Part shown: positions 8,401 through 12,592 of the stretch, in pieces
Numbering within the stretch: position 1 is the stretch's first letter
Layout of the letters: the number at the start of each line of letters is the position of its first letter
Source of the DNA: Felis catus
Taxonomy: Eukaryota
Length of the DNA: 64,000 bases
Assembly (NCBI RefSeq): GCF_018350175.1
Contig: NC_058382.1
Location: 13,888,001 to 13,952,000 of the forward strand
Reading direction: 5' to 3'
Position numbers and translations under genes: made by a program
Notes under the pieces: generated by a model
Told to the model about the DNA's origin: nothing
The model's input: only the letters and a program-made list of their open reading frames with translations
Database searches by the model: none

Positions 8401-11400
8401 CAGCTCTGCGTTAAACACGTGTCCCCGAAACAGCACAGCGCCTCCCTGGGGAGGAGCAGCCAGGAGGGCTTCAGCTGGGTAAGGCCATCCAGCCGTGGAG
8501 AGCCATGCTTCTCTCTGGCAGCGCCAGGGCGAGACCTTGGCCCCCACACCCCCGGTTCAGGAGAACCTTCTTTGCACTACTCACTCCCTGCAAACGGGTC
8601 AGTGTTCTGAGCAACCACACCACTGGGAGGAAGAATGTGGCTACGTCCGGGTGGCCTGCCATCAAGCCCTCCCCAGACAGAATCCAAGCAGAGATTTTGC
8701 TGGTTCTGCACAAGGACGGGGTGAGGAAGGGAGTCCAGGACTGTGGCCTCTTTCCCACAATCCATCCCCACACGGCAGCCAGAGACCCTTTTCTCCAGCT
8801 CTTCCTTGCTCAGATCCCTTCAAGACCCCCACCACATTCCAAGAAAACACAAAATATAAATTGTGTATTTTCACAGCCTCAGCCTTCAAGGCCACCAACC
8901 TCACCTACCATCCCCATCACTCTGCTCCAGCACCTCAGGCCTCCTCATTGCTCTCACCAGACCAAGCTCAGCCACAAGGCCTCTGTACCTGCCTGGTACA
9001 CACTTCCCCTGGTCCTCCTTGTTGTTCATGTCTCAGGTCCAAGGGCACCTTGAGTATCCAGCTGAATACACCTGGGCTGATCTTCCATTCTACCCTCTCA
9101 ACGTGAAATCAGCACAAGTACTTGTTTACCTAGTACTGGCCTGACAGGCAGGCCCATGGAAGCCTCTGGGGCCGAGCTTGTCTCCCTAGCGCCCAGGCAG
9201 TAGCTGCTGACTGAAAGCACTCCTCTGGGTCTCAGGGACTCCAACCTGTCCGGCCCTCCACACCCTTACACAGGGTCTCCCACCCATGCATGCAGGGACA
9301 GCGTCTGTATTCTGGCATGGAATGGGAGTCGTGCATGAAGGCTGGCAACAGAAACAGGCCCTTTAAACTCCCACCGATCCCCCCACCCACCCACCCACCC
9401 CCATACACACCATGGCCCCAGAGAAGCATCTACTTCCGCTCCTACAAGGGAAAAGGACAACAAGCAGAGTGACATGGAAGTCTGCTCCTCACCCTCCCAT
9501 CTCAGGGAAGGGGTAGCTTGTGTCAGAGCCAGGAGACTTAAAGATTTAAGGGCTATTGGTGACAACGTGCCAAAAACCCAAACCCAAACACACACACACA
9601 CACACACACACACACACACAGTCAGAAACTGGGGAGTGAGACAGTCCCACCTCCAAGCTGCTCTGAAAGGGACTAACCAAGCCAGCCAGGCCCGCCCTAT
9701 GGTCCCCGATGGCAGTCCTTCATGCCAGTGGGAGTCAACTCTCTCTCACCTGCAGGTCAACTGAGCAGAGAGACTAGAGAAAGTTGGGAGAACAAAACAC
9801 AGGAGTTCCACTCAAGAATGACCAATAGATGGGGTGCCTGAGTGGCTCAGTCGGTTAAGTGTGCAACTTTGGCTCAGGTCATGATCTCGCGGTTCCTGAG
9901 TTTGACCCCCGTGTCCGGCTCTGTGAGGACACTCAGAGCCCTAAAGCCTACTTCGAGTTCTGTGTCTCCCTCTCTCTCTCTGCCCCTCCCCTGCTCACAC
10001 TCTCTCTTTCTCTCTCTCAAAAATAAACAAACATTAAAAAAAAAAAAAAAGAATGACCAATAGGCAGATTGTTTCTGACGCCAGCCACACTGGTGATCTG
10101 TGCCCCCAACACCTCTGTGGCCACCCACGTCAGCTCACTCTTATTCCAGAGCCTGGGGAGGGAGGCCAGATGTTGCCCTTTGAAGGTAGGAAAGCCTGGA
10201 GTTGCTATCTCACTGGGGCAGGGGAGGGTCTGAGAGGAACTCCAGTGATTGGGTTGGGTCCTCCCCTCCATTCTCAGTTGGCCTGATTTGTTCTTACCTC
10301 CCAGAGCAACAGAAGTCACCCAAGACTAAAATAGTCCCAACACCCCCAGTCCCCAACCACATCCAAAGCACCAAAGGAGAAGAAATCGGCTCCCTCTACT
10401 TTCCCCTTCTCTCTTAAAACTGCCAAAGACTAGCTGGGGACTTAACTGATTTTCGTATCCTGTAGATGAGCAAACTGAGGCTCAGGAAAGCATGCTGCTC
10501 TGGGCCACTCAGCTCTCGTGGTCTCCCGCCCAAACTCCCTCCTGTGAAGGTGGGTGACCTGGGGTGCAGGTGCTGAGGACCTTGTGGCCAGGGAGACTCC
10601 CACTCATCTCTCCTGCCTTGCAGGAGCAGAGCCTAGGGAAAGGCCTCCTCTGGCTTTCCAGCTATCAGGTAAGGGAGGAGGAGGAAGGAAGTAGGACAGG
10701 ACAAGTTCCAGCTGGGTGGGGAGGATGCCGGCTTCAGCCCGGTGGGAGCCTGGATCCCTAAGCCAGCTCCAGCCAGTGACAGAGCTGTACAGAGGCAGGA
10801 CCCAGGATGGGATCAGACTGAAGAAGGAGACATCAGGAGCACAGCCTCATGCCCGCAGGGAAGCAAGCAGCCCCGCCACCAGCCAGGCATCACTGGCGTG
10901 CAGCAGGCGCTCCCTATGAGGCCTTGTCCAGAAAGGCCCTGTGGACCAAGGTCTTCTGAAAAGCTCCTGACCCTAAGTTCCTGAACGGGCAGCTGGAGAC
11001 ACTGATGACTGCCCATAAACTCCACAAAAGAGCATTTTTCTTAAAAAAGGGTTTGTGGTTCTGACAGATTGTCAAAAAAGCCCAGGTGTCCAAAAAAAAA
11101 AAAAAAAAAGGATTAACAACAACTACTCTAAAACAAGAAAAAGGTACCAAAAGACACAAAATAGAAAAATCAAGAAAACAGATTAGGACCGACAGGAACG
11201 AAGTGATGGATAAACGAGACAGAAAGGATGAGGGGAGAGTCTAGGATGGGGAAGCACAGGAAAGGTGGAGGACAGGACCCCCATCTCCCAGGCCAGCACA
11301 CAAGCAGCCAGCGCCACCCTCAGGAAGCTGTCCTTGCTGCAGATGCCACAGCATGGCACAGGGGTACAATGGAGTCCAGCGCCAGCCAGGCGCAGCGGGC

Positions 11401-12592
11401 AGCACCTCCTCCCTCAGCCTGGCACTGGCTTCACCGCTGCCACCCTCCCCACTCTGTCTCCTCGTTCTCCTGCCTGGAAGACAGAACAGACGGACCAGAG
11501 ACAGACAACAGGAGGGACTAGACAGACCAGGAGACAGGGATGGATGAAAGATAGAGAAACAAGGAAAGAGAAAGTGCACAGACCCCCAAAGTCCCCACAC
11601 GGAGGCAGAGCCCAAAGCAAACTCCAACACCAGCACTCCCCCCACTGGAGCTGCCTAAACCCTTCTGTGACCCCAGAAGCCGGTCTCCAAGCGCACAGGT
11701 ACCCGATAGAGAAGCGCTGCCCCATCCCCCTCCAACAAGGCCCTTGCAGCCTTACCTTGGTGCGCCCGTTGATGACGTAGCCACCCAGGCGCCCAGCACA
11801 GTGGCGGATTACAGCATCCACGTGGGCCATGAGGACCCCGATGCTTCGGCAGCCCGGTTCGTGGCCTTCCACCCAGGCAATCTGGTCCCCGCGAATGCTG
11901 CGTGGCGGGATAGCCCGCTGGCTCACCAGCTGCCCGTCACGCAGGCGCCCACTCCGCTTCAGGGCCTCCACCTCGGCCAGCACACAGCCACCCAGTGCTG
12001 CCCCCAGGAAGCTGTCCTTGACACAGATGCCATAGTACCGCATGCAGGGCACAATATAGTCCAGGGCCAGGCGTTCGGGCGTGGCGGGCAGCACCTCCTC
12101 CCTCAGCCCTGCGCTGGCCTCGCCACTGTCACTGCTGCAGCCCATCCCGCCCTCCCCTTCGGCCTCTGCCTCCCGGTTCTCCTGCCTGGCCCAGGACCGC
12201 TTGCTGGGTGCAGGGGCATCCCCGCCATCCTCTGCCCACTTCCGTTTGGGGGCCTCAGGCCGGGCGCCCTGGGCCGCCAGTCGCTGGCACCCCTTGGTGA
12301 CCAGTGCTGCAGCGCCCTCACTCTGCAGGGGCCGCAGCTCACCACCATCCTGCCCGCCTAAGCCCTCCCGCAGGGGGCTGGCTGTGGTGGAAGTGGCTGT
12401 GACCCTGGGGGTCCCGCTCCCCGCCGAGGCCTCACCAGGTGCTCCTGGTCGGTGGTAGGAGGGTAGCAGGGGACAGGGCAGGTAACTCTCCACCCCCATC
12501 CTGGCCCGGCCAGGCTCCAAGGGCTCTGACACAGAACCCGGCAACTGAGGGAGAGCCTGACTCAAGGGCTGCGGCTGGCACGGGCTGTCCAT
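5498..12592 (-). CDS. EGLN2: Egl-9 family HIF prolyl hydroxylase 2 (PHD1), 405 aa. Coding exons (-): 12592-11756, 6869-6750, 6260-6124, 5902-5835, 5553-5498
   Basis: [15 protein letters not shown] start; [31 protein letters not shown] (HxD); [21 protein letters not shown] (distal His and 2OG-binding Arg). Exons 837+120+137+68+56=1218 nt, in frame, all GT-AG. Confidence 0.98.
7230..7390. mobile_element. MER5-like hAT-Charlie DNA transposon remnant
   Basis: GAATCACCTGGGA...CCCCAGGTAATTCTAATGTGCAGC; a similar copy lies at ~16100-16280. Confidence 0.55.
9588..9620. repeat. (CA)n microsatellite, about 16 units
   Basis: Perfect AC run. Confidence 0.95.
9831..10050 (+). mobile_element. CAN-SINE with 15-bp TSD AAGAATGACCAATAG
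   Basis: Full body, (CT)n and poly(A); TSD copies at 9814-9828 and 10049-10063. Confidence 0.92.
11291..11477 (-). repeat. Decayed intronic duplicate of EGLN2 coding sequence 11975-12189
   Basis: Exact shared blocks of 25 nt (11395-11419 = 12084-12108), 16 nt (11321-11336 = 12005-12020) and 14 nt, collinear and in the same orientation. Confidence 0.9.

What the first reader, a model, noticed from the sequence alone, without database searches (positions are those of the whole stretch)
11291..11477. Hidden decayed duplicate of the EGLN2 coding exon in the next intron, with its own splice acceptor
Seen in sequence: 11291-11477 is collinear with coding 11975-12189, about 280 bp beyond the exon donor, with exact 25-, 16- and 14-nt blocks. 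On - it still reads [43 protein letters not shown] (with frameshifts), versus [43 protein letters not shown]. Homology ends almost exactly at a good acceptor (TCTGTTCTGTCTTCCAG|G, AG at 11475-11474). Splicing the phase-0 donor at 11756 to it gives [19 protein letters not shown] (stop 11416-11414). That would be a PHD1 of about 298 aa that keeps the N-terminal region but lacks HxD...H. Inference: a poison or alternative terminal exon built from the gene's own sequence, which could tune HIF hydroxylase dosage.
Basis: partly seen in the sequence, partly recalled or inferred. Interest (0 to 1): 0.7.

Follow-up and report, generated by a model that had tools for sequence, protein, structure and literature searches.

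The report
Ancient fossil exon fragment in EGLN2
A cat-family copy of the oxygen-sensor gene EGLN2 (PHD1) carries a broken 190-base copy of part of its own exon in the next intron; the copy is likely an old, functionless relic shared with distant mammals rather than a regulatory exon.

Summary
The duplication is real. Window 11291-11477 matches coding 11975-12189 (E 2e-29; 170 of 208 aligned bases) and has four frameshifting indels. The 298-residue splice product is computed correctly. It is a copy of the exon's middle, with neither of the exon's splice sites. The acceptor AG is inherited exon sequence that landed behind a pyrimidine tract; 17 of 194 YAG sites in this intron have a tract as good or better. 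There is no good donor within 500 nt and no AATAAA/ATTAAA in the intron. Contigs from 4 of 4 runs laid (RNA status is a guess) cross the acceptor unspliced, and 0 of 265 retrieved EGLN2-type proteins join exon 2 to it. Protein fragments from public contigs show the same copy, with the same shortening, in a hyena-like carnivore, likely in mustelids, and likely in a hominid. It therefore probably predates the primate-carnivore split and has decayed about as much as neutral DNA would. Verdict: a partial pseudogenic exon, a known kind; this scan noted similar fossils in other genes. Rare use of the acceptor is not excluded, because no raw RNA reads were laid.

The parts
11291..11477 (-). Decayed partial copy of the middle of EGLN2 exon 2 (core; weak fringe out to 11273 and 11484). 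Indels against the exon: -5, -18, -4, +1, -2 nt
11975..12189 (-). Source segment inside exon 2 (about codons 135-206)
11756..12592 (-). Coding part of EGLN2 exon 2 (first coding exon; numbering recalled), 279 codons, phase-0 donor AAG|GTAAGG
   Evidence: identical over 279 aa to named cat and snow leopard EGLN2 proteins
11474..11517 (-). Cryptic acceptor at the junction: intronic pyrimidine tract plus a CAG inherited from the exon; no A between 11518 and 11476
11518..11552 (-). Competing upstream TAG (11519-11518) and the only branch-point-like motif (A at 11545)
11414..11416 (-). Stop reached both by the hypothetical 11756-to-11473 splice (298 aa) and by unspliced read-through (392 aa)
11110..11272 (-). 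Pyrimidine-rich 3' flank, also seen behind the copy in other mammals; no good donor and no poly(A) hexamer
6750..6869 (-). EGLN2 exon 3, the normal splice partner, which supplies the HxD motif

Best explanation
A 187-base piece from the middle of EGLN2 exon 2 is duplicated in the same orientation 280 bases into the next intron and is broken by four frameshifts; it is likely an inert relic of a local duplication that probably predates the primate-carnivore split. Inferred history: a short local copy-and-paste (slippage or break repair with the nearby exon as template) placed exon sequence beside a pyrimidine-rich intron tract. An exon CAG thereby came to look like an acceptor. The copy lost about 23 nt early, since all copies share the shortening, and then decayed independently in each lineage. 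A deletion of about 200 nt, likely in the carnivoran ancestor, moved it closer to the donor. The normal mRNA splices 11756 to 6869, and the copy leaves with the intron or appears in unspliced RNA.
For: Shown: duplication and indels. Among gap-free codons 137-210 there are 18 non-synonymous and 10 synonymous differences, including positions invariant or nearly so across 21 mammals (Y179, R185, Y187, V191, G197). CpG bases changed at 7 of 18 against 31 of 190 others (P 0.027); total divergence is 18%, 0.21 corrected. The copy keeps ancestral G155 and A171 where the cat exon is derived. Contigs of 4 of 4 runs from 4 studies cross the acceptor with no joint or loose end. 0 of 265 proteins holding the exon-2 end continue into the acceptor. 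17 of 194 intron YAGs have an equal or better tract. Age: P0024 has a hyena-like exon (2 of 246 differences from Crocuta) and reads straight into the copy. P0172 and P0188 share longest-contig lengths (12096, 12103) with ferret- and stoat-type read-through proteins. P0183 shares 8811 with a hominid-type protein (1 of 246 from bonobo). That is 3 matches among 14 lengths, against 0.21 expected. The span from the copy's start to the VLP motif is 66-69 nt in all four copies measured and 92 nt in the exon. The acceptor region matches cat at 35 of 60 residues pooled, the copy body at 149 of 215 (P 0.12).
Against: No raw RNA reads were laid. Contigs drop rare junctions, none of the runs is on record as RNA, and the 20 listed holders all had a full word share, which may have outranked runs holding only a spliced form. 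Orthology rests on translated fragments, not DNA alignments. The hominid link is one contig-length match; the chance of some match among that family's 10 lengths is about 0.16, about 0.012 for those over 7 kb (summed). The copy body matches cat somewhat better than its flanks in each comparison, which is not significant in the one unbiased case (53 of 64 against 36 of 50, P 0.18). The Gln or Pro codons at the junction in other species are compatible with a kept AG. Cluster listings show at most 15 members, so a spliced isoform could hide in an unlisted member.
Confidence: 0.8

Rival explanations
1. The junction acceptor is used at low level in a regulated way, giving a 298-aa PHD1 without the catalytic domain or an NMD substrate.
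For: The CAG has a 78% pyrimidine tract, equal to the real exon 3 and exon 4 acceptors, and a 44-nt AG-free zone. The donor is phase 0 and a stop follows after 19 codons. Morais and Harrison report 22 of 284 human genes with a pseudogenic exon spliced in (PMC2718932). Annotated proteins of other mammals use cryptic exons elsewhere in this intron.
Against: No donor above 6 of 9 within 500 nt and no canonical poly(A) signal. The branch-like motif points to the TAG at 11518 instead. No junction in 4 of 4 runs or in 265 proteins. The sequence after the AG is frameshifted differently between lineages.
Confidence: 0.08
2. The copy acts without being an exon. Its exon-derived purine-rich motifs slow splicing of intron 2 or favour retention of its 5' part, lowering active PHD1.
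For: A RefSeq snow leopard model (XP_049477749-52, 449 aa) and five unnamed felid-type proteins of 392-450 aa read unspliced through the copy. Three of 4 contigs end at 11784, the place expected for a fork between spliced and unspliced paths at the donor with 31-letter words (inference).
Against: The runs were chosen for holding this stretch. Read-through proteins occur in many mammals and stop before any copy, and gene calls on unspliced DNA give the same thing. The read-through frame differs even among cats (392 against 449-450 aa, a 1-nt indel). A same-strand repeat cannot pair with the exon in the RNA.
Confidence: 0.07
3. The copy is an inert fossil but younger, confined to Carnivora; the non-carnivore fragments are misassigned.
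For: Only the hyena-like record ties exon and copy together firmly in one protein. Ruminant- and primate-type read-throughs leave the cat alignment near 11570.
Against: P0176-P0187 match cat at only about 50% of residues against 65-79% for carnivore fragments and share a contig length with a hominid-type protein. P0018, with a primate-like exon, ends in a PGRRT match to the copy's start 477 nt after the donor (weak, E 0.008). The copy has Arg at codon 162, as in mouse, rabbit, armadillo and sloth exons and unlike the 11 laurasiatherian exons aligned.
Confidence: 0.05

Closest known systems
Pseudogenic exons of mammals (Morais and Harrison 2009, PMC2718932; parts 1-2 of 5 and passages read; the one supplementary file held is 503 characters and has no EGLN2)
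   Same: An exon copy in the gene's own surroundings, disabled by frameshifts and decaying. Such copies occur at 0.4-1.0% of genes in human, mouse, rat and cow.
   Different: This is only 187 nt from inside an exon with 837 coding nt, and it carries neither of the parent's splice sites; most in that survey keep at least half the parent's length. It probably never worked as an exon.
Unannotated tandem exon duplications in introns (Acta Naturae 2022, PMC9013439; passages read, EGLN occurs 0 times in the main text; its online tables were not seen)
   Same: Found the same way, by aligning an exon to its own gene, and at similar identity (about 80%).
   Different: The functional examples there have split-read support and conservation peaks. 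Neither was found here.
Poison exons and regulated unproductive splicing (as described in PMC2718932; otherwise recalled)
   Same: Inclusion would introduce a premature stop upstream of the catalytic exons.
   Different: No donor, no sign of inclusion and no elevated conservation were found.

Membership tests
Pseudogenic exon (Morais and Harrison 2009) | Copy of an exon of the surrounding gene | tested here: met
   E 2e-29, 170 of 208 identical; partial copy only
Pseudogenic exon (Morais and Harrison 2009) | Disabled by a frameshift or premature stop | tested here: met
   Indels of -5, -4, +1 and -2 nt; stops at 11431 and 11414 in two frames
Pseudogenic exon (Morais and Harrison 2009) | Neutral-like codon substitution | tested here: inconclusive
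   18 non-synonymous and 10 synonymous codon differences, invariant residues changed; codon positions 1+2 at 15% against position 3 at 25%, P 0.13; too short for a firm Ka/Ks
Tandem-duplicated alternative or mutually exclusive exon | Copy has both splice sites of its parent and keeps the frame | tested here: not met
   Copy is internal to the exon, has no donor above 6 of 9, and is frameshifted
Poison exon | Usable 3' splice site | tested here: inconclusive
   Tract equals real acceptors, but 17 of 194 intronic YAGs do as well and the branch-like motif favours the TAG at 11518; crude scoring, no trained model
Poison exon | Downstream 5' splice site closing a cassette | tested here: not met
   Best donor in 500 nt scores 6 of 9; the first 8-of-9 site is at 9750
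Poison exon | Inclusion seen in RNA | tested here: inconclusive
   No joint in contigs of 4 of 4 runs; contigs drop rare forms and RNA status is a guess
Poison exon | Inclusion rises when NMD is blocked | not testable with these tools
   Needs perturbation RNA-seq
Poison exon | Conservation above flanking intron | tested here: inconclusive
   By translated fragments only: acceptor 35 of 60, copy 149 of 215; no DNA alignment
Alternative last exon | Poly(A) signal downstream within the intron | tested here: not met
   No AATAAA/ATTAAA in 6870-11755; nearest variants are AAGAAA at 11042 and AATAAG at 10145

The most novel reading that the evidence does not exclude
A fragment of EGLN2's own exon, kept in intron 2 since early placental mammals, supplies a chimeric acceptor or splicing elements that divert some transcripts into a catalytically dead PHD1 of about 298 aa or into decay, giving the gene a self-made dial on HIF hydroxylation.
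Probability: 0.1. Interest if true: 0.65.

Novelty: new member of a known kind. Interest (0 to 1): 0.2.

Why it matters
As a fossil it matters little. It is a datable marker in intron 2, a possible source of mis-mapped reads or primers for EGLN2 exon 2, and the explanation for a spurious internal repeat in a RefSeq snow leopard 'isoform X1'. If the acceptor were used and regulated, it would be an unreported way to cut the dose of an oxygen sensor, and it could be tested directly in human data because the copy likely exists there too. Paper searches for EGLN2 with 'exon duplication' and 'poison exon' gave 0 papers; those with 'splice variant + intron 2', 'retained intron' and the splicing term sets gave nothing on this locus in their listings.

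Tried and rejected
(1) A 700-nt tandem unit with a later internal deletion: the copy's 3' flank resembles the upstream intron no better than shuffles (45 of 500 and 70 of 500 reach the score), so this is not supported. (2) Retroposition: the T-run at 11091-11109 is on the wrong end for a poly(A) tail of the copy and looks lineage-specific against the P0176 flank. (3) Recent gene conversion from the exon: the copy keeps ancestral G155 and A171. (4) Metagenome scan for mammalian EGLN2 DNA: 2 distant loci at 45-46% identity, not used. (5) Run search: no RNA holder listed on record; only 4 of the 24 listed runs were laid, all contigs; the exon beyond 11784 had no cover, which is no evidence either way. 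(6) P0181 carries an unrelated N-terminus joined to the primate-type copy; it has no credible match in the window (best E 0.015) and is left unexplained. (7) P0173 and P0175 are repetitive chance hits and were dropped. (8) The first alignment used lax gaps, extended spuriously upstream and had the frame off by one; replace it. (9) Ruminant- and primate-type spacer peptides find no match in the cat intron, which fits a deletion but does not prove it. (10) Earlier-finding searches by place and by sequence returned nothing.

Full report
Setting. The window holds EGLN2 (PHD1) on the minus strand. Coding exons at 12592-11756, 6869-6750, 6260-6124, 5902-5835 and 5553-5497 splice to a complete protein of about 405 aa. 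The 279 residues of the first coding exon are identical to named cat and snow leopard proteins, so the genome is felid.

Observation. It holds. Window 11291-11477 matches 11975-12189 at E 2e-29, scores far above 200 shuffles, and has 170 of 208 aligned bases identical. The exact blocks are as described. The genome search returns only the copy and its source. Relative to the exon the copy has indels of -5, -18, -4, +1 and -2 nt. Joining 11756 to 11473 gives 298 aa ending at 11414, with no dioxygenase domain.

What kind of copy. It comes from the middle of the exon and has neither parental splice site. The acceptor's CAG lies within the 14-nt exact block, so it is exon sequence that came to sit behind an intronic pyrimidine tract. 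By a crude score the tract equals the real exon 3 and 4 acceptors, but so do or better 17 of 194 YAG sites in this intron. There is no adenosine between 11518 and 11476. The only branch-like motif (A at 11545) has a TAG at 11519-11518 as its first AG. No donor scores above 6 of 9 within 500 nt, and intron 2 has no AATAAA/ATTAAA. Neither a cassette nor a terminal exon is therefore complete.

Decay. Among gap-free codons there are 18 non-synonymous and 10 synonymous differences, several at residues invariant across 21 mammals. CpG bases are hit more often (7 of 18 against 31 of 190, P 0.027), and corrected divergence is 0.21. From recall, not from a call, the neutral distance from the boreoeutherian ancestor to cat is about 0.15-0.2, so the decay fits neutral drift over that time.

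Use in RNA. The run search listed 24 runs, 20 holding the stretch, none on record as RNA. Four were laid, from four studies. Each gave one contig crossing the acceptor unspliced, with no joints or loose ends. Three contigs end at 11784, where a fork at the donor would end a path of 31-letter words; this suggests a spliced form coexists, but it is inference. A common junction into 11473 would also be expected to break contigs near the acceptor, and none breaks there. Limits: contigs drop rare forms, and runs holding every word were ranked first. Among 297 retrieved proteins, 265 hold the exon-2 end. Of these, 107 continue into exon 3, 110 run into the intron unspliced, 48 skip to later exons, use other sites or carry variant exon-3 starts, and 0 continue into the copy's acceptor. 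A RefSeq snow leopard model (449 aa) and five unnamed felid-type proteins read through the copy unspliced, in frames that differ among cats. Similar read-throughs in other mammals stop before any copy, and may simply be gene calls on unspliced DNA.

Age. P0024 has a hyena-like exon and continues through the 5' intron, the tract, the copy and its flank. A search of 1.84 billion representatives and a word search with the copy's frame gave P0171, P0172, P0174, P0176 and P0188; two further hits were repetitive and dropped. P0172 and P0188 share longest-contig lengths with ferret- and stoat-type read-through proteins. P0183, in the 12-member P0176 cluster, shares one with a hominid-type protein. 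That is 3 matches among 14 lengths against 0.21 expected. P0018, with a primate-like exon, ends in a short match to the copy's start 477 nt after the donor, against 282 nt here (weak). All four copies measured are 23-26 nt shorter than the exon over the same span, which points to one origin. The copy keeps ancestral G155 and A171, and has Arg162 as in rodent, rabbit and xenarthran exons. Mustelid-type fragments share the cat's short spacer, while ruminant- and primate-type ones diverge near 11570, which suggests a carnivoran deletion. These assignments are inferred from translated fragments, not from DNA alignments. The acceptor region is not better kept than the copy body (35 of 60 against 149 of 215, P 0.12).

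Mechanism. Shown: same-strand local copy, frameshifts, inherited AG, missing donor and poly(A) signal. Inferred: one local duplication before the primate-carnivore split, no function since, removal with the intron. The copying mechanism is not resolved; a larger tandem unit was tested and not supported.

Comparison. It meets the definition of a pseudogenic exon (PMC2718932; parts 1-2 of 5 and passages read), as a partial copy. It fails the tests for a duplicated alternative exon and for a terminal exon. The poison-exon tests are failed or open. Earlier notes of this scan on DAB2 and TSGA13 supplied the class name and the paper; their loci were not checked. No paper on this locus appeared in seven searches. 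The survey's gene lists and the online tables of PMC9013439 were not seen and could list it.

Verdict. A real, probably very old and probably inert fragment. Interest 0.2. The regulatory reading keeps about 10%.

Noticed in passing
window 3000-4830, + strand: A cytochrome P450 gene of the CYP2 family (CYP2T-like by position; name recalled) ends tail-to-tail with EGLN2; the poly(A) hexamers lie at 4823 (+) and 4914-4919 (-), about 90 nt apart. It looks disabled: a frame change near 4030 in the exon at 3960-4150 and a Pro in the heme motif (GKPMCLG).
   Followed up: partly
window 10779-10631, 10655-10587, 10581-10487, 9773-9750, 9436-9413, - strand: Annotated EGLN2 isoforms of right whale, tamarin, armadillo, giant pangolin and hippopotamus use extra exons that map to these intron-2 positions. 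The intron is prone to cryptic exons away from the copy.
   Followed up: partly
P0001 (XP_049477749-52): The snow leopard RefSeq 'isoform X1' is an unspliced read-through into intron 2 that lacks the catalytic domain and includes the copy in frame; it is likely an annotation of retained-intron RNA.
   Followed up: yes
P0181 (ENA, 708-nt contig): An unrelated 86-residue N-terminus is joined to the middle of the primate-type copy. It could be a chimera or a splice into the copy; no DNA was available and the N-terminus has no match in the window.
   Followed up: partly
window about 11570: Point at which ruminant-, primate-, bat- and pangolin-type read-through peptides leave the cat alignment; likely the edge of a deletion of about 200 nt shared by carnivorans.
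   Followed up: partly
P0162, P0158, P0161 and others: An exon-3-skipping form (365 aa in cat), lacking the HxD exon, is annotated in many mammals; 25 of 265 proteins continue this way. It is a more widely annotated catalytically dead PHD1 than the one proposed here.
   Followed up: no
window 10050-9830 and 3400-3250, - strand: Two carnivore-type SINE insertions (identification recalled), one in EGLN2 intron 2 and one in a P450 intron.
   Followed up: no
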